Part shown: piece by piece, positions 1,215-6,273 of the stretch
Layout: every line of letters starts with the position of its first letter
How positions within the stretch are numbered: position 1 is the stretch's first letter
Source of the DNA: a virus
Taxonomy: Duplodnaviria; Heunggongvirae; Uroviricota; Caudoviricetes
Virus record (IMG/VR): IMGVR_UViG_2695420430_000010
Reading direction: 5' to 3' (one strand)
DNA length: 7,859 nt
Notes under the pieces: generated by a model
Told to the model about the DNA's origin: nothing
The model's input: the letters and a program-made list of their open reading frames with translations, nothing else
Databases searched by the model: none
Program-made: the position numbers and the translations under genes

Positions 1215-1489
1215 ATGGAGACTGTTTTTGACGCACTGAAAGCAATGGGAAAAGCCACATCCATAGAACTTGCTGCGCGCGTGAAGAAGTGCTGAACGAA
1301 CTATGGGAACTGAAAAAGGCTGGTTTTGTTGATAAAAGCGCGTACACCTGGCGTGTGGCTGATAACAACGTTCAGCAGGAACAGCCAGCGCAGGCAGAAC
1401 TGCCGGAAGAAACCACCACAATGAGTGAAGTTATGCAGCGCATACTGGCATTTTATCAGGGAAATGTTCGATATTTTAGACGTTACTAG
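1215..1489 (+). pseudogene. Small ren-like gene interrupted by a -1 frameshift near 1281-1283
   Basis: ATG 1215 with an excellent SD (GGGAGG at 1203-1208) opens [26 protein letters not shown] then stops at 1293-1295. The -1 frame is open from 1232 and continues [25 protein letters not shown]... to the stop ending at 1489. The joined product (about 91 aa) loosely resembles lambda Ren (…ARAGLLVIEGKVWRT…) and sits where ren lies in lambda, immediately after P. Confidence 0.45.
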
Positions 1490-1861
1490 ATTAAAGAGCA
1501 TTAGTTCAGATGTGAATTGACATTGTGTGGCACAGGGTTGGGCTAGCGTGGGGGTTTGCTTTGTGTAAGAAACGGATGCTCTGCAAATTACTACTAATGC
1601 TTAATGTTAGTCTGATCTGCTCCCCGATGATTAATACACCGCTATGTTAGTAATGTCTGTAGATCGCTGTGTGTTGCATCCATCGGTTGACCCCACAGTC
1701 CAAACCAGACTGTCAGCTTTGATTCGATTCTATCTACTCAACCTGTCAGGTAATGTCTGAGCTAATACACAGAGTACGGCTATCGCGAACTTTAAGCTAG
1801 GTATCTGATACGCACCGTTCACTTGTTTGTACTTCTTGCACTGACTAGCTATCGTGCGCAG

Positions 1862-1890
1862 TTATTTATAGGTAATCTCCAGTGTATAAT
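1862..1890 (+). promoter_or_regulatory. Candidate sigma70 promoter with extended -10 (TGTATAAT) for the 281-aa gene
   Basis: TGTATAAT at 1883-1890; weak -35 TTATTT at 1862-1867 with 17-nt spacer; the start codon lies about 35 nt downstream, preceded by SD CAGGAGG (1917-1923). Confidence 0.35.
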
Positions 1891-1928
1891 TTTCCAACTT
1901 ATGGGAGATTGTAAAACAGGAGGAATAT

Positions 1929-2774
1929 ATGAGGAAAAAATCGTTTGGACGTTGCCCGTTTGATTTCGACGAAGATGTAAAAAAAATAGCCGCGATAAAT
2001 AAATATATCCATGCGAAATTTGAGAGGCATAAAAATAAAATAGATAACCTAAAGGGGGTGGAACAAAAATTGATGGTTTTACATTACTTTAATGTACTGA
2101 ATGAACTTAGTAATCAGGCTATATTTTCTTTGAGTACCGGAGCCTTTTCAGCATCGGAAGTATTAACTAGAGTTATAATGGAACAGGCTGCCAATCAATT
2201 TTATATAGCAATTGATGATGGAAAAAATGCACAAGCATTACTCAAGGGTAGTAAGAAATTAGTTCATAGTAATGGGAAACGGTGGCTGGAGTGTTTAAAA
2301 TCCAAAGAAATGACTAATCCAGCAGCAGATGAAAGGATTCGTATCGGAAAAGAGCTAACTGATATGTTTAATAGATTGTGGCCAAATACACCTGAATATC
2401 CTGGAACCAAAAAGCTTTTCGAAGTAATTGGCTGGGAAACACACTATCATGCCTATTACGTCCCTCTTTGTGATTCAATACATACATTCTCTGATGATAT
2501 GGCAAATATAGTATCTCTATATAATGCAATCCAAAGCGATAAAACTACTGCTATCGAACTCACTCTTGCAGTTAAACAAGAAAATAAACGGCTGGCAATT
2601 TATAATGTCGTAATTGCTATTGGCCTGCGGTGTGAGGCCTTAGTAAATGTATTTAACTCTTTAGGTTATCGAGATATTATAACTGAAATGGCGCCAACAA
2701 TAGATGCAGTCAACCAGATTATAATTCGATATGATGATTTCGAACATTCCAGAATTTTTATTGTCAATAATTAA
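1929..2774 (+). CDS. Hypothetical protein, 281 aa, function unknown (AT-rich cargo gene; possible HEPN-like Rx5H motif near the C-terminus)
   Basis: Long ORF in a strongly AT-rich stretch with a near-consensus SD (AGGAGG, 5-nt spacer) and an upstream extended -10 promoter. No family recognised by eye. C-terminal IIIRYDDFEHSRIF contains an R-x5-H spacing compatible with a HEPN RNase motif (speculative). Confidence 0.75.
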   Translation: MRKKSFGRCPFDFDEDVKKIAAINKYIHAKFERHKNKIDNLKGVEQKLMVLHYFNVLNELSNQAIFSLSTGAFSASEVLTRVIMEQAANQFYIAIDDGKNAQALLKGSKKLVHSNGKRWLECLKSKEMTNPAADERIRIGKELTDMFNRLWPNTPEYPGTKKLFEVIGWETHYHAYYVPLCDSIHTFSDDMANIVSLYNAIQSDKTTAIELTLAVKQENKRLAIYNVVIAIGLRCEALVNVFNSLGYRDIITEMAPTIDAVNQIIIRYDDFEHSRIFIVNN

Positions 2775-2879
2775 TTGGCAGAATTCGTACATGCACAACA
2801 ACTAGTTATAGTTGACCTATTTCGCTCTTGAGAGACAACCATACTCAAATCTTCCACATTGCAGGAGATTTGAGTATGA

Positions 2880-3396
2880 ATACGTCACCGAGGAACAAAG
2901 ACAGTATCATAGGCCCAAAAAGACCACTTCAGATATCTCATATCTGGGGGCTCCAAATCCGGCTTGAACTGGAAGGTAAAACGCGTGATTTAGCTCGGTT
3001 TCAAGCAGAGCTACGGTGCTGCAACTGAAAAACTGGCAGTCCTATCCAATTTGAGATAACCAAAGGGACAAGAGAAGCTGTTTCTGCATTGATAAAGCTT
3101 GGCAATTTACGCAGTAAAGACTACTTGTTCCGATCTCGGGTCGGTACTAACCAACACATATCAATCCTGCAATATAACCGAATCTTTCATAGGGGGGAGA
3201 AAAGCTTGGTCTCGAAGATTCGCTTTACAGCACACATTCCATGAGAAGAACAAAACCTTGCCTTGTCTGCAAGAAAACTAAGAATCTCCGGGTGATCCAA
3301 CTTCCGTTGGGCCATAAGAAAACGGAAAGCACAGTTCGTTATCTGGGTATAGAAGTTGATGATGCATTAGAGATCTCTGAATCGATCGAAGTCTAA
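2880..3396 (+). pseudogene. Degenerate tyrosine recombinase (phage-type integrase) catalytic-domain remnant, broken by an in-frame stop and a frameshift
   Basis: One frame reads ...GPKRPLQISHIWGLQIRLELEG...(stop at 3026-3028)...KTGSPIQFEITKGTREAVSALIKLGNLRSKDYLFRSRVGTNQHISILQYNRIFHRGEKSLVSKIRFTAHIP(stop). A second frame (3193..3396) reads ...STHSMRRTKPCLVCKKTKNLRVIQLPLGHKKTESTVRYLGIEVDDALEISESIEV(stop). Together these recapitulate the integrase box I (R), LFPS-like segment, HxxR, and LLGH...Y catalytic-tyrosine motifs in the right order. Confidence 0.5.
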
Positions 3397-3808
3397 AGCT
3401 GTCAGGGCTGCAGCAGCAGCCCTGTGCCAAGAGCGTACCAATATATGTCTCAAAAAATTGGGCACAGGTCAATATCAATACCAACAACTCTGATTGTGCT
3501 CATGTGATTTACTCCTGTAGAAAACGCAGACAGTAAAAATATTTCACTGGCTGCTTCAGACAGGGCGTCCATCATATCATTACATAACAATAGCGGGGCA
3601 CGATATCTAGACATGCAGCAACGATGGACATAGAATGAGTACAATCAAAAGCATGTTTAACTACTTTAATTTAAAAATCTTAGAATCTTAGGTGTAGAGT
3701 TCAATACTTAGTTACATACCCTTTTGAAAGCATCACAAATCATAACTATGAGCCTGTTAAAGGCATAGGTATTCTTAATTAAGAGCATTTTAATGAGAGA
3801 AAAATAAA

Positions 3809-5182
3809 ATGAAAAGACTATATTATACCCATCATGATAGTCGAACCTTAAAACTTGCTATAGAAGGTGATGTTTCTGATAATGCGAATATTTTTACAGT
3901 AATTGTAGGTAAAAATGGCGTTGGAAAAAGCAGATTGTTATCTCAGATTGCTAAAGACTGTATTCAAGATGTTCATTTCTTGAAAACTTTTAATCCATTA
4001 TTTGACAGAGAAATAACACCAAAGTTAATTGCCGTATCTACCAGCCCATTCGATAAATTCCCTCCAGGGCGTAGGTCATTAAATCACCAAAGGAAAGAAA
4101 ATAATTATCGCTATGTGGGTATGCGTGGAGAAGGCCCCTTCGGCGTATCAAATGCCGTATCCCTTTTATCTTCAGCAGCGAGAGGTTGGCTAGAGAAACT
4201 TGCTTATTCAGAAAATCCTGCAAATTTACTCGATGTTTTTCATTCTATTGATTTTGAGCCCCATATAGAGTTTGTATTTAAACCAACTTACAACGGACCG
4301 GACACTCCTGACTATAACTTCATTGGTGTATATTCAGATGAGATATTAACGGAAGTTAAGGAGTTATATTTAAAATACAATATAAAAATTGACAGGAAGA
4401 ATATTGAGAGTCTCTTAAAGTTAAACTCCGAATCACGTCATGATATTTACGAAGCACTGGTTGAAATTAATCGATTTGAACCTGAACGTAGGGCTGTAAC
4501 CTTGTCAGTCGATTTTACCAATGGTGAAACATTGGTTGGCTCGACTTATGCGAATAATTATTTTTCTAGATCAATTCTTAAACTTATGAACGCTGGCTTC
4601 ATGAGATTGATGGATATGCGACTCATAAAAAAAAGCTATGGTCCCATGTCACTTAAACGTGCGAGCTCGGGAGAACAATGTTTATTAGTGATGTTGCTTG
4701 GAATTGCAGGGCATATAACTGATGGTTCTATAATATTAATTGATGAACCGGAAATAAGCTTGCATCCTCGATGGCAGGAAGAGTTTATCATTATGTTAAC
4801 AAAAGCATTTTTAACTTACTCAGGTTGTCAATTCATAATTGCAACTCATTCACCACAAATAATATCCAATTTGCCGAATAAAGGTTGTTATATAACATCT
4901 TTGTCGAAAAGTTATCTTTATAAAGCAAAATACTTTAGCAACCGGTCTGCAGACTATCAACTTGCGGAACTATTTGATGCCCCTGGCATTATGAATGAAT
5001 ACATTGCCAGGTTAGCTTTCAATTTACTTTCAAAAGTTAAGACTGCTAAGTTAGTAACAGATGATAATTGGCGTGAATTAAAACAACTCCAACTTCTCCT
5101 TGAAAACGTTAATAGTAATGACCCTATTAATGAACTCGTAAATTCCGTATCTCAGGTGTGTGAAATTTATGCCAAAAATTAA
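3809..5182 (+). CDS. ptuA: ABC/OLD-type (AAA_15/21-like) ATPase, PtuA-like component of a Septu-type defence module
   Basis: 457-aa ORF, AT-rich. Walker A GKNGVGKS (K40 codon 3926-3928); signature-like SSGEQ; Walker B IILIDEPE (D312/E313 at 4742-4747); H-loop ATHSP (His codon 4847-4849). Immediately followed by, and overlapping, an HNH nuclease gene. Confidence 0.8.
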   Translation: MKRLYYTHHDSRTLKLAIEGDVSDNANIFTVIVGKNGVGKSRLLSQIAKDCIQDVHFLKTFNPLFDREITPKLIAVSTSPFDKFPPGRRSLNHQRKENNYRYVGMRGEGPFGVSNAVSLLSSAARGWLEKLAYSENPANLLDVFHSIDFEPHIEFVFKPTYNGPDTPDYNFIGVYSDEILTEVKELYLKYNIKIDRKNIESLLKLNSESRHDIYEALVEINRFEPERRAVTLSVDFTNGETLVGSTYANNYFSRSILKLMNAGFMRLMDMRLIKKSYGPMSLKRASSGEQCLLVMLLGIAGHITDGSIILIDEPEISLHPRWQEEFIIMLTKAFLTYSGCQFIIATHSPQIISNLPNKGCYITSLSKSYLYKAKYFSNRSADYQLAELFDAPGIMNEYIARLAFNLLSKVKTAKLVTDDNWRELKQLQLLLENVNSNDPINELVNSVSQVCEIYAKN

Positions 5183-5804
5183 AAATCCAATTAGATTCAG
5201 CGCAGAGTCATTAGATATTATTGAGAAAAAATTGTCTTCTCCAGATTTTAAGCATACCAACTGGGGAGATGATGATTTGCAAGTTCTCCGTGCAGAAATT
5301 AGAAATCATTACAGAGAAGAACAAAAGCTAGAATGTGTATATTGTCATGAGCCTATTGGGGTAAGAGCTGCACAAGCTGCTCCTATAGAGCATATTGTGC
5401 CAAAATCTCAATATCTATGTTTTATTTTTGAACCTAAGAATCTATGTGTAGTATGTCCTGACTGCAATGAATTCAAAGGTAAAAATGAAGTGTTATTTGA
5501 ACCCGTAATAAATGGGGGGCGGCGCAAAAACTATCCAACTGCATCTGCATCATTTCGCATCGTTCATCCACATATAGATGATTATGAGATGCATATTATA
5601 AAAGCAAATCGTGTTTATGTGGACAAAACACCTAAAGGGCACTATACCATTGGAATATGTAAACTAAATAGATTTTTTCATTATTTTGGGATGTGTGATG
5701 AATTTGTTAATGATGCAAAAATTGCTGAGGCAAATGAAAATTTTTTCAAAAAAGGTAGTATTACTACTAATGAATTATTGGATGATGACATTCATTTGAT
5801 TTAA
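5169..5804 (+). CDS. ptuB: HNH endonuclease, PtuB-like component of a Septu-type defence module
   Basis: Motif CVYCHEPIG...IEHIVPKS...N...CPDCNEFKGKN is a classic HNH (CxxC-H...H...N...CxxC) core. The ATG at 5169 overlaps the end of the ATPase gene by 14 nt (ATPase stop at 5180-5182), implying translational coupling. The ORF track's GTG at 5160 is a less likely start. Confidence 0.8.
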   Translation: MPKIKNPIRFSAESLDIIEKKLSSPDFKHTNWGDDDLQVLRAEIRNHYREEQKLECVYCHEPIGVRAAQAAPIEHIVPKSQYLCFIFEPKNLCVVCPDCNEFKGKNEVLFEPVINGGRRKNYPTASASFRIVHPHIDDYEMHIIKANRVYVDKTPKGHYTIGICKLNRFFHYFGMCDEFVNDAKIAEANENFFKKGSITTNELLDDDIHLI

Positions 5805-5913
5805 CTATGAATTATTATATTGTAAAGTAATCAGGTAAGATATGTTAGACAGTGAGACTATTGCCTTACAGAATTCATTATTCTTATGGATCGCCTTTCT
5901 GACTGATTTCATA

Positions 5914-5946: not shown

Positions 5947-5960
5947 GCGGGTGCTTGAGG
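5947..5960 (+). promoter_or_regulatory. 5' fold-back element of hok mRNA, complementary to 3' segment 6323-6337
   Basis: GCGGGTGCTTGAGG (5947-5960) against the reverse complement of CCTCAACGCACCCGC (6323-6337), which is GCGGGTGCGTTGAGG: near-perfect long-range 5'/3' complementarity, as in the fold-back-inhibition structure of hok-family mRNAs. Confidence 0.45.
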
Positions 5961-6060
5961 CTATCTGTCTCAGGCATGAACACCAAAGGCAGATAGAGAA
6001 AAGCCCCAGTTAACATTACGCGTCCTGCAAGACGCTTAACATTAATCTGAGGCCAATTTC

Positions 6061-6273
6061 ATGCTAGACACATGTAGGTTAGCCTCTTACGTGCCGGAAG
6101 GCAAGGAGAAGCAGGCTATGAAGCAGCAAAAGGCGATGTTAATCGCCCTGATCGTCATCTGTTTAACCGTCATAGTGACGACACTGGTAACGAGGAAAGA
6201 CCTCTGCGAGGTACGAATCCGAACCGGCCAGACGGAGGTCGCTGTCTTCACAGCTTACGAACCTGAGGAGTAA
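6061..6273 (+). CDS. Mok-like reading frame (in-frame N-terminally extended form overlapping hok; regulatory)
   Basis: ATG 6061 opens a 70-codon frame that contains hok in the same frame, comparable to chromosomal mokC/hokC as I recall them. A candidate antisense promoter sits over this start region. Confidence 0.4.
   Translation: MLDTCRLASYVPEGKEKQAMKQQKAMLIALIVICLTVIVTTLVTRKDLCEVRIRTGQTEVAVFTAYEPEE
6076..6104 (-). promoter_or_regulatory. Candidate promoter for a Sok-like antisense RNA
   Basis: On the minus strand: TTGCCT (plus 6104-6099), 17-nt spacer, TAACCT (plus 6081-6076). It would transcribe leftwards across the mok start/SD region, the usual Sok target. Confidence 0.3.
6118..6273 (+). 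CDS. hokD: Hok/Gef-family type I toxin (HokD/RelF-like small membrane peptide)
   Basis: 51-aa product MKQQKAMLIALIVICLTVIVTTLVTRKDLCEVRIRTGQTEVAVFTAYEPEE matches the Hok family and specifically my recollection of HokD (RelF). SD AAGGAG at 6103-6108. rem lies downstream, as in Qin. Confidence 0.85.
   Translation: MKQQKAMLIALIVICLTVIVTTLVTRKDLCEVRIRTGQTEVAVFTAYEPEE

What the first reader, a model, noticed from the sequence alone, without database searches (positions are those of the whole stretch)
1929..2774. Unassigned 281-aa AT-rich cargo gene with its own strong promoter and RBS, possible HEPN-like protein
This is a well-formed gene (extended -10 TGTATAAT promoter, AGGAGG RBS) in the most AT-rich part of the window. 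It is separated from the ATPase-HNH module by an integrase remnant, so it is probably an independent unit. I recognise no family. The only motif-level hint is an R-x5-H spacing (RYDDFEH) near the C-terminus, reminiscent of HEPN RNase motifs found in abortive-infection proteins. A standalone single-gene defence or abortive-infection function is plausible but unproven.
Basis: inference. Interest (0 to 1): 0.65.

Follow-up and report, generated by a model that had tools for sequence, protein, structure and literature searches.

The report
DUF5677 gene cassette in a prophage
The gene is real and intact, but it belongs to a catalogued family of unknown function (DUF5677); it travels as a small mobile cassette that keeps landing in prophage and defence-island cargo slots, so an anti-phage role is plausible but unproven, and the proposed RNase motif does not hold up.

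Summary
The ORF at 1929-2774 (+) is confirmed: 281 aa, AGGAGG Shine-Dalgarno, conserved upstream TATAAT, and dN/dS of 0.20-0.38. It is not family-less. It passes Pfam's cut-off for DUF5677 (PF18928), matches phrog_4167 full-length, and RefSeq names it "DUF5677 domain-containing protein" (E. coli, including EPEC E2348/69).

The family's conserved residues are R81, E85, N89, Y173, H185, D190 and N193.

The gene is an independent unit. It occurs without Septu in 38 of 57 E. coli genomes, there in a P2-like prophage. It moves together with a short tyrosine recombinase, and related loci carry repeated hairpin sites at cassette boundaries. Distant homologues lie beside CBASS, Gabija, restriction-modification, RES and SLATT genes.

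Defence cargo is the best reading (about 0.45). One homologue showed no protection in a published test.

The parts
1612..3438 (+). Transferable module: DUF5677 gene plus a short tyrosine recombinase (here a pseudogene) plus a terminal hairpin/site
   Evidence: 87-89% nucleotide identity to L002 8001-9853 (P2-like prophage of E. coli ATCC 11775) and to L015 9664-11580 (Buttiauxella MAG). The flanks are unrelated.
1729..2816 (+). Minimal self-contained DUF5677 cassette (promoter, SD, ORF)
   Evidence: This is the only stretch shared with L014 (9782-10889, 88.5% identity). There it is bounded by repeat sites at 9726 and 10924 and has no recombinase.
1885..1890 (+). Candidate -10 hexamer TATAAT, within the invariant block CAGTGTATAAT
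   Evidence: Perfect hexamer, invariant in all four diverged copies. The -35 is poor and the TG is not at the canonical extended -10 spacing. The consensus scan did not call it. Function is inferred.
1918..1923 (+). Shine-Dalgarno AGGAGG, 5-nt spacer to the ATG
   Evidence: Read directly from the sequence. The homologues have AGGAGA or AGGGGA at the same place.
1929..2774 (+). CDS of the 281-aa DUF5677-family protein (32.2 kDa, pI 8.2, no hydrophobic segment)
   Evidence: dN/dS is 0.20-0.38 between copies. The AlphaFold2 model has pLDDT 93.6 and pTM 0.90, with 11 helices.
2169..2195 (+). Codons for R81-V-I-M-E85-Q86-A-A-N89, the first family motif
   Evidence: R81 is present in 57/57, E85 in 55/57 and N89 in 55/57. 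Position 86 is H in 19/57 (which gives R-x4-H) but Q in this protein.
2481..2507 (+). Codons for H185-TFSD-D190-MA-N193, the second family motif (SDS[VI]HxxSEDxxN)
   Evidence: H185 is present in 56/57, D190 in 54/57 and N193 in 53/57. Y173 just upstream is present in 56/57.
2727..2747 (+).
   Evidence: R267 is Arg in 8/57. The H273 column is a gap in 43/57 and His in 6/57. It is A or Q in close relatives P0012, P0075, P0076 and P0077.
2876..3396 (+). Pseudogene of a short (194-200 aa) tyrosine recombinase that has only the catalytic domain
   Evidence: Multiple stops and frameshifts. About 73 bp are deleted relative to the intact copies. RefSeq marks it 'frameshifted; internal stop'. The intact orthologue in L002 hits Pfam Phage_integrase at 9.6e-18.
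3403..3438 (+). Stem-loop CAGGGCTGCAGCAGCAGCCCTG followed by a degenerate copy of the cassette-boundary motif (GTGCCAAGAGCGTAC, 3424-3438)
   Evidence: folding energy -12.6 kcal/mol, z = -3.0. The same arrangement follows the recombinase stop codon in L003 and L015.

Best explanation
The gene encodes a soluble, all-helical protein of the DUF5677 family (Pfam PF18928, PHROG 4167). It is carried as a self-contained cassette with its own promoter, ribosome-binding site and ORF. The cassette has been moved by site-specific recombination into cargo slots of mobile elements, most likely through the adjacent short tyrosine recombinase and hairpin boundary sites. Here it sits in a Qin-like lambdoid prophage of E. 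coli, between the replication genes and hok/sok, next to an unrelated Septu system.

The most likely role is lysogen-expressed cargo acting in phage or mobile-element conflict, that is, defence or exclusion. The working part would be the conserved polar cluster R81/E85/N89 together with Y173/H185/D190/N193, not the C-terminal RYDDFEH.

Shown: the gene, its family membership, purifying selection, a confident fold, the residue conservation, the modular transfer and the genomic neighbourhoods.

Inferred: promoter activity, recombinase-mediated movement, the defence role, and any catalytic chemistry.
For: Gene and family: 37.4 bits against a cut-off of 27.1; E = 1e-175. All 57 aligned relatives hit DUF5677.

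Selection: dN/dS is 0.20-0.38.

Fold: pLDDT 93.6, pTM 0.90.

Conserved cluster.

Independence from Septu: 19 genomes carry the full island and 38 carry DUF5677 plus an intact recombinase in a P2-like prophage, between the tail-fibre-assembly and sheath genes, with no Septu.

Cassette nature. The boundary motif occurs 7 times in L015 against 0.06 expected, and 4 times in L014 against 0.04 expected.

Conflict-type neighbourhoods:
- Septu here.
- CBASS cyclase plus a 2TM effector (L017), and Gabija with DUF6119 (L020).
- A type IIG RM in Tn7-like cargo (L006/L009), a methylase with an ATPase in a prophage (L004), and a methylase with a PD-Lambda-5_A-like protein in an ICE (L013).
- A PLD nuclease (L014).
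- A RES toxin (L021) and SLATT_4 plus SMEK in a Pseudomonas P2-like phage (L039).
- A second lambdoid lineage with the gene again just after the O/P-like replication genes (L038).

About 8 of 14 non-redundant contexts contain recognised defence or toxin genes within 10 kb. Under an assumed background of 15-20%, the binomial P is 3e-4 to 2e-3 (a rough estimate).

DUF5677 was also reported as enriched next to small serine recombinases in Bacillota defence contigs (PMC12632615).
Against: - Neither this protein nor any of the 57 relatives matches a PADLOC defence model. There is no NCBIfam match.
- A DUF5677 ORF was among nine candidates expressed in E. faecalis and challenged with six phages. It is not among the five reported as protective, and the journal version no longer mentions it.
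- Three contexts (L007/L008, L018, L019) look like ordinary chromosome.
- The neighbourhood sample is small, and the background rate used for the binomial is my assumption.
- There is no partner gene (antitoxin or sensor) and no recognisable catalytic signature.
- The family is absent from the 50,697 sequenced phage records searched, although it is present in 18 IMG/VR prophage-type contigs.
Confidence: 0.45

Rival explanations
1. Divergent HEPN-superfamily protein. A four-helix-bundle RNase or nucleotide-binding effector whose motif is centred on the invariant R81 (R-x4-H in part of the family), acting as a stand-alone abortive-infection toxin like other single-gene HEPN Abi proteins.
Against: - Position 86 is Q in this protein and in its close relatives, and M, N, T, Y, F or V elsewhere. 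A catalytic His would not vary like this.
- Foldseek finds nothing in PDB or BFVD.
- No member hits a HEPN Pfam model.
- Sequence searches of PDB find no HEPN structure.
Confidence: 0.17
2. One reading: a HEPN-like RNase whose catalytic motif is the C-terminal R267-x5-H273 (RYDDFEH).
For: The motif is present in the sequence and is kept in the nearest relatives P0002, P0005, P0007 and P0008.
Against: R267 is Arg in 8/57. The H273 column is a gap in 43/57. H273 is A or Q in relatives that are only 28-39% identical. The motif lies outside the Pfam DUF5677 core, which covers residues 49-195. It sits at the low-confidence end of the model, where pLDDT falls to 64 and then 39 in the last two ten-residue blocks.
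Confidence: 0.03
3. Accessory factor of the short tyrosine recombinase, for example a directionality, regulatory or maintenance factor for the hairpin-bounded cassette system, rather than cargo.
For: DUF5677 followed by the recombinase is the arrangement in all 57 E. coli genomes and in Buttiauxella. In P. fluorescens L020, a 35%-identical DUF5677 is again flanked by a 53%-identical copy of the same recombinase and by a 3' remnant of another copy downstream. Andersen et al. also found DUF5677 enriched next to serine recombinases.
Against: The recombinase occurs without DUF5677 in roughly 750 E. coli genomes, with other neighbours. DUF5677 occurs without any recombinase in L014 and in most distant loci. 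The gene remains under purifying selection in the 19 genomes where the recombinase is a pseudogene. Association with two unrelated recombinase classes fits cargo better than cofactor.
Confidence: 0.1
4. Another lysogenic-conversion or counter-defence function that benefits the mobile element, such as an anti-defence protein or host-physiology modifier, and not phage exclusion.
For: It is carried by very different mobile elements: lambdoid and P2-like prophages, Tn7-like and Tn3-like elements and an ICE. It has no match to known defence models. A homologue gave no reported protection when tested.
Against: At 281 aa and pI 8.2, with a conserved enzyme-like polar cluster, it is unlike typical small acidic anti-defence proteins (my own knowledge). 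It has its own promoter in a prophage slot that is usually expressed in lysogens. It is also found in chromosomal islands beside CBASS and Gabija, where defence genes accumulate.
Confidence: 0.15

Closest known systems
Pfam DUF5677 (PF18928) / PHROG phrog_4167 / RefSeq 'DUF5677 domain-containing protein' (WP_001227887.1)
   Same: Scores above the Pfam gathering threshold. The PHROG match is full-length. The gene is 99.9-100% identical to annotated E. coli genes. It carries all residues conserved across the family except H268, which is Y here.
   Different: Nothing differs; it is a member. The family has no assigned function, no solved structure and, as far as I could find, no positive experimental phenotype.
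Stand-alone HEPN abortive-infection proteins (AbiD/AbiF, AbiV, AbiU2 type; recalled from my own knowledge of Anantharaman et al. 2013, not tested here)
   Different: The His is not conserved, and it is Q86 here. There are no hits to HEPN profile models. The similarity is to about 110 residues of a 281-residue protein and is no better than to designed bundles.
Single-gene DUF defence from a P2 hotspot (DUF4238 protein, Rousset et al. 2022, PMC9122126)
   Same: A single uncharacterised DUF protein carried in a variable slot of P2-like prophages.
   Different: A different family with no PADLOC cross-hit. The P2 slot also appears to differ: the G/FI 'Z/fun' position here, as against the hotspot they analysed, which from my own knowledge of P2 is the old/tin locus. 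DUF4238 has a demonstrated anti-T7 phenotype, whereas DUF5677 has none.
Integron gene cassettes and Xer/dif-type modules
   Same: Single-gene units bounded by short, imperfectly palindromic sites, arranged in arrays, associated with a tyrosine recombinase, and found in different replicons.
   Different: The recombinase is only 194-200 aa, just the catalytic domain. From my own knowledge that is FimB/FimE-sized, far shorter than the ~320-aa integron integrases. The cassette has its own promoter. The sites do not resemble what I remember of attC or dif sites (unverified), and they come in two flavours placed back to back. No Rfam family or literature match was found. Recombination at these sites is inferred, not shown.

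Membership tests
Pfam DUF5677 (PF18928) | Whole-protein score at or above the curated gathering threshold of the family HMM | tested here: met
   37.4 bits against a cut-off of 27.1, E = 3.4e-9, residues 49-195 on model positions 3-159 of 166. All 57 relatives found with HMMER also hit it.
Pfam DUF5677 (PF18928) | Presence of the family's conserved residues (R81, E85, N89, W119, P158, F164, Y173, H185, D190, N193) | tested here: met
   All are present in the window protein.
HEPN superfamily | Conserved R-x4-6-H motif | tested here: not met
At the invariant R81, position 86 is H in only 19/57 and Q in this protein.
HEPN superfamily | HEPN-type up-and-down helical bundle fold | tested here: inconclusive
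HEPN superfamily | Match to HEPN profile models (Pfam HEPN families) | tested here: not met
   No HEPN Pfam family was hit at E <= 5 by any of the 57 members.
HEPN superfamily | Metal-independent RNase activity | not testable with these tools
   Needs biochemistry.
Known anti-phage defence systems (PADLOC-DB v2) | Match to a model of a known or candidate defence protein | tested here: not met
   Zero families for the window protein at E <= 1. Across the 57 relatives there are only single, scattered marginal hits.
Septu (PtuA/PtuB) as an extra component | Obligate co-occurrence with PtuA/PtuB | tested here: not met
   PtuA (E = 1e-165) and PtuB (E = 1e-83) are complete on their own. DUF5677 occurs without them in 38 of 57 E. 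coli genomes and in all other loci.
Integron gene cassette | Promoterless ORF with an attC site, captured by an IntI-type integrase | tested here: not met
   The cassette has its own conserved TATAAT and SD. The associated recombinase is 194-200 aa with only a Phage_integrase catalytic domain. The boundary sites do not resemble what I remember of attC. No attC covariance model was run.

The most novel reading that the evidence does not exclude
DUF5677 is a new stand-alone anti-phage effector built on a helical bundle distantly related to HEPN, with a non-canonical active site (R81/E85/N89 plus H185/D190/N193). It also rides on a previously undescribed cassette system: hairpin-bounded single-gene cassettes moved by a FimB-sized tyrosine recombinase. 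This system shuttles cargo among lambdoid prophages, P2-like prophages, transposon passenger regions and chromosomal arrays in Enterobacterales, and possibly in Pseudomonas.
Probability: 0.2. Interest if true: 0.7.

Novelty: new variant of a known kind. Interest (0 to 1): 0.45.

Why it matters
If DUF5677 proteins protect against phages, they would add a single-gene defence family with an unsolved fold and a new set of catalytic or ligand-binding residues. The family is present in EPEC E2348/69 and the E. coli type strain, so it is easy to test.

Separately, the way the gene moves deserves attention. The same cassette is found in a lambdoid prophage, a P2-like prophage, beside a Tn3-type transposase/resolvase pair and in an array next to guaA, always beside the same palindromic boundary motif and often beside a 200-aa tyrosine recombinase. 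This points to a small cassette-exchange system that could explain how prophage 'moron' slots and defence islands are refilled.

If neither idea holds, the finding is simply a correctly predicted gene of a known DUF.

Tried and rejected
- The word-indexed homologue search gave only 6 and then 15 hits. The full HMMER scan was needed to reach the family, and found 66 clusters.
- Foldseek against PDB (best E = 0.077, TM about 0.2) and BFVD (best E = 0.036) found nothing. The afdb50 library was not available.
- PDB sequence and profile searches gave only noise.
- tblastn against 50,697 phage records gave no match.
- NCBIfam gave no match.
- The weak Pfam DUF4420 (PD-(D/E)XK) hit, E = 0.099, was rejected. 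It is below threshold, and the model is all-helical whereas PD-(D/E)XK is an alpha/beta fold.
- I looked for a small partner ORF or antitoxin upstream (1490-1928). No ORF there looked like a credible partner gene.
- Literature. The only functional mention of DUF5677 is the preprint of Andersen et al.; it is absent from the journal version. The other hit is an unrelated Salmonella machine-learning paper. It is not in the held supplements of Rousset 2022, and no supplementary files of the 2026 NAR P2/P4 paper are held. Searches by accession and by motif found nothing. Nilsson et al. 2004, on site-specific recombination in the P2 Z/fun region, is probably relevant but is not held in the library.
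- The first search for related loci attempt, with the diverse alignment, failed because it had no conserved stretch.
- I wondered whether the boundary repeats are ERIC/IRU elements. Their low copy number (median one place per genome) argues against a dispersed repeat family. I could not check the ERIC consensus.

Full report
**1. The observation**

The window contains an ORF at exactly 1929..2774 on the + strand: ATG start, 281 aa, stop included. AGGAGG lies at 1918-1923 with a 5-nt spacer to the ATG.

TGTATAAT lies at 1883-1890 and contains a perfect -10 hexamer, TATAAT, at 1885-1890. The TG directly abuts the hexamer, whereas a canonical extended -10 is TGnTATAAT. The best -35 candidates match only 2 of 6 positions. 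The consensus promoter scan did not list the site. Even so, the block TTATTTATAGGTAATCT-N-CAGTGTATAAT and the SD are invariant or nearly so in four copies of the module that differ by about 11% overall. A real promoter is therefore likely, although "strong" is not demonstrated.

The ORF is 34.8% GC. The whole island 1612-5900 is AT-rich (36.6%) against flanks of 51-53%, and parts of the Septu genes are more AT-rich still.

RYDDFEH is present at residues 267-273.

**2. Where the window comes from**

The AT-rich island sits between the replication genes and hok/sok. A truncated DUF1627 pseudogene marks its left side; sok was found by Rfam at 5949-6123, and Hok by Pfam. The island contains three items:
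- the 281-aa gene;
- a recombinase pseudogene;
- a complete Septu pair, PtuA at 3809-5182 (PADLOC E = 1e-165) and PtuB at 5160-5804 (E = 1e-83).

**3. The protein has a family**

It scores 37.4 bits on Pfam DUF5677 (PF18928; gathering cut-off 27.1) over residues 49-195. It matches phrog_4167 ("unknown function") end to end at E = 1e-175. RefSeq calls it "DUF5677 domain-containing protein" (WP_001227887.1). There is no PADLOC or NCBIfam match.

A full HMMER scan of 1.84 billion representative proteins found only 66 clusters at E <= 1e-3. Nearly all are 270-305 aa long, and every one of the 57 full-length members aligned hits DUF5677. This is a small, length-conserved subfamily.

Between the four diverged enterobacterial copies, dN/dS is 0.20-0.38. 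The gene is therefore maintained by selection.

**4. Conserved residues and the HEPN idea**

In the 57-sequence alignment (counts):
- R81 is invariant.
- E85 and N89 are each present in 55/57.
- W119 and P158 are each present in 54/57.
- F164, Y173 and H185 are each present in 56/57.
- D190 is present in 54/57 and N193 in 53/57.

The two motifs read [ST]xxE[AV]L[SA]R[VI]x[IL]Ex[ST][VI]N and SDS[VI]HxxSEDxxN.

R267 is Arg in 8/57. The H273 column is a gap in 43/57. Even among relatives of 28-39% identity, H273 is replaced by A or Q. The motif also lies outside the Pfam core and at the low-confidence C-terminal end of the model.

However, 19 of 57 relatives read R81-x4-H86, which is a HEPN-like spacing at the invariant arginine. 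Position 86 is otherwise Q (in this protein and its near relatives) or M, N, T, Y, F or V. That variability is not how a catalytic histidine behaves.

**5. Structure**

AlphaFold2 with the 57-sequence alignment gives a confident model (mean pLDDT 93.6, pTM 0.90) made of eleven helices and no strands.
- Foldseek finds no significant match in PDB (best E = 0.077, TM about 0.2) or in BFVD. The AlphaFold database library was unavailable.
- These are interleaved with acyl-CoA dehydrogenase helical domains and with metalloproteins 3dby, 3d19 and 6n63.

A HEPN-like bundle is therefore a reasonable description of part of the protein, but the evidence does not separate it from a generic four-helix bundle. 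I could not see whether R81 superposes on the HEPN arginine. Profile and sequence searches of PDB find nothing. The protein is soluble (pI 8.2, no hydrophobic segment).

**6. It is an independent, mobile unit**

Of 5,426 complete E. coli genomes, 57 carry the gene.
- 19 genomes have the whole island as in the window.
- 38 genomes, including the type strain ATCC 11775, have an 89%-identical copy followed by an intact 194-aa tyrosine recombinase. It lies in a P2-like prophage between the tail-fibre-assembly gene and the tail-sheath gene, with no Septu. From my own knowledge this is the classical P2 Z/fun moron slot.

The shared DNA corresponds to window 1612-3424. The same module occurs in a Buttiauxella MAG downstream of a Tn3-type transposase and resolvase (L015).

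In "Bacterium BS0013" (L014), only window 1729-2816 is shared, that is, promoter plus ORF, in an array immediately downstream of guaA.

The window's recombinase has lost about 73 bp and carries stops. RefSeq marks it as frameshifted.

**7. Boundary repeats**

The module and the neighbouring single genes in L003 (E. coli Nissle), L014 and L015 are bounded by a roughly 24-nt palindrome. It comes in two flavours: GTCCGCTC-TGTGCCAG-GAGCGGAC, and a second flavour with a TGAGCGAG loop on the other strand. The two often sit back to back about 50 bp apart between genes.

The 15-nt core occurs 7 times in L015 (0.06 expected from shuffles) and 4 times in L014 (0.04 expected). It can form hairpins.

The junction element is low-copy in E. 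coli: 1,490 of 5,426 genomes, with a median of one place per genome. It is therefore island-specific and not a dispersed repeat.

In the window a degenerate copy remains at 3424-3438, just after a stem-loop that follows the recombinase stop codon. The left junction at 1612 falls exactly at the edge of where the site sits in L002 and L015.

The short recombinase (93% identical between the P2 copy and the Nissle copy) occurs in about 800 E. coli genomes, mostly without DUF5677. I found no Rfam family and no paper containing the motif.

The natural reading is a cassette-exchange system, but no recombination event has been shown.

In P. fluorescens L020, a 35%-identical DUF5677 gene is flanked by a 53%-identical copy of the same recombinase and by a 3' remnant of another. 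A 41-nt inverted repeat and a 19-nt palindrome lie on either side. The palindrome pair is weak evidence because there are only two copies.

**8. Neighbourhoods of homologues**

*Prophage slots*
- E. coli lambdoid, after O/P (this window).
- A second lambdoid lineage at 41% identity, again directly after O/P-like genes and next to 8xMP membrane proteins (L004, L038).
- E. coli P2-like, G/FI slot.
- A Pseudomonas P2-like tail-cluster cargo region next to SLATT_4 and SMEK proteins (L039).

*Other mobile elements*
- Tn7-like cargo next to a type IIG restriction enzyme (L006/L009).
- An ICE with T4SS genes, next to a cytosine methylase and a PD-Lambda-5_A-like protein (L013).
- A RhuM/DUF7079 islet (L012/L016).

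*Chromosomal islands*
- CBASS cyclase with a SLATT_6 effector (L017), and DUF6119 with Gabija GajA/GajB (L020).
- A PLD-family nuclease (L014).
- A RES toxin (L021).

Three contexts show nothing suggestive (L007/L008, L018, L019). By my count, 8 of 14 non-redundant contexts have recognised defence or toxin genes within 10 kb. With an assumed 15-20% background this gives P of about 3e-4 to 2e-3. This is a rough hand count and not a proper enrichment test.

**9. Literature**

Only two papers in the library mention DUF5677. One is an unrelated Salmonella machine-learning study.

Andersen et al. (bioRxiv v2, PMC12632615) found the domain enriched in contigs carrying small serine recombinases in Bacillota. 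They cloned one DUF5677 ORF among nine candidates. Five of the nine gave protection in E. faecalis against six phages, and the DUF5677 ORF is not among those named. The journal version does not mention it.

Rousset et al. 2022 validated other single-DUF genes from P2 hotspots. DUF5677 does not appear in the supplements held for that paper.

**10. Conclusion**

"No family" is wrong, "independent unit" is right, the RYDDFEH/HEPN hint is wrong in its specifics, and "possible defence gene" remains the best, still unproven, reading.

I put about 0.45 on conflict or defence cargo acting through the R81/E85/N89-H185/D190/N193 cluster. Within or beside that:
- about 0.17 that it is a genuinely HEPN-derived effector;
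- about 0.10 that it serves the recombinase;
- about 0.15 that it has another element-benefiting function.

The part I find most worth following up is how the gene travels. The hairpin-bounded cassettes and the 200-aa tyrosine recombinase are unexplained, and I could not find them described.

Noticed in passing
window 3403-3438; L003 4498-8780; L014 9322-15730; L015 7773-13575: Arrays of single-gene cassettes are bounded by a ~24-nt palindrome: GTCCGCTC-TGTGCCAG-GAGCGGAC, plus a TGAGCGAG-loop flavour on the other strand, often back to back about 50 bp apart. The core occurs 7 times against 0.06 expected in L015. The element is low-copy and island-specific in E. coli (1,490 of 5,426 genomes, median one place). 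No Rfam or literature match was found. It may be an undescribed cassette-exchange system.
   Followed up: partly
window 2876-3396; intact copies at L002 9287-9871, L003 6054-6656, L015 10950-11516: A short (194-200 aa) tyrosine recombinase with only the catalytic domain. It is 93% conserved between a P2-like prophage and an E. coli Nissle island, and is present in about 800 E. coli genomes with varying neighbours. In the window it is a pseudogene with a ~73-bp deletion and stop codons.
   Followed up: partly
L020 8566-9069 (-), 10010-10870 (+), 11611-11709 (+): In P. fluorescens, a 35%-identical DUF5677 gene is flanked by a 53%-identical homologue of the same short recombinase and by a 3' fragment of another copy. 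This forms a 41-nt inverted repeat (8573-8613 / 11602-11642). A 19-nt palindrome lies at 9748 and 11562. DUF6119 and Gabija follow.
   Followed up: partly
window 3809-5804: A complete Septu system: PtuA (457 aa, PADLOC E = 1e-165) and PtuB (214 aa, HNH, E = 1e-83), overlapping by 23 nt. In E2348/69 an IS481 element sits just downstream, and in NCTC9112 an IS3 element interrupts the island.
   Followed up: partly
window 5949-6273: A hok/sok type I toxin-antitoxin locus: the Rfam sok RNA at 5949-6123 (117 bits) and a Hok/Gef ORF ending at 6273 (Pfam E = 1e-23). It marks the right edge of the AT-rich island.
   Followed up: no
window 1289-1489: A 66-aa ORF corresponding to the N-terminal remnant of a DUF1627 gene. 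RefSeq annotates it as frameshifted and incomplete. It was apparently truncated when the island was inserted.
   Followed up: no
L004 9351-9659; L038 6286-7008: In the second lambdoid lineage, the DUF5677 homologue is accompanied by proteins of the 8xMP (octameric membrane protein) family. Whether this pairing is meaningful is unknown.
   Followed up: no
L007/L008 8850-9563: The 53%-identical homologue P0005 is followed, 30 bp downstream on the same strand, by a 237-aa ORF with no Pfam or PADLOC match. It could be a partner gene in that lineage.
   Followed up: no
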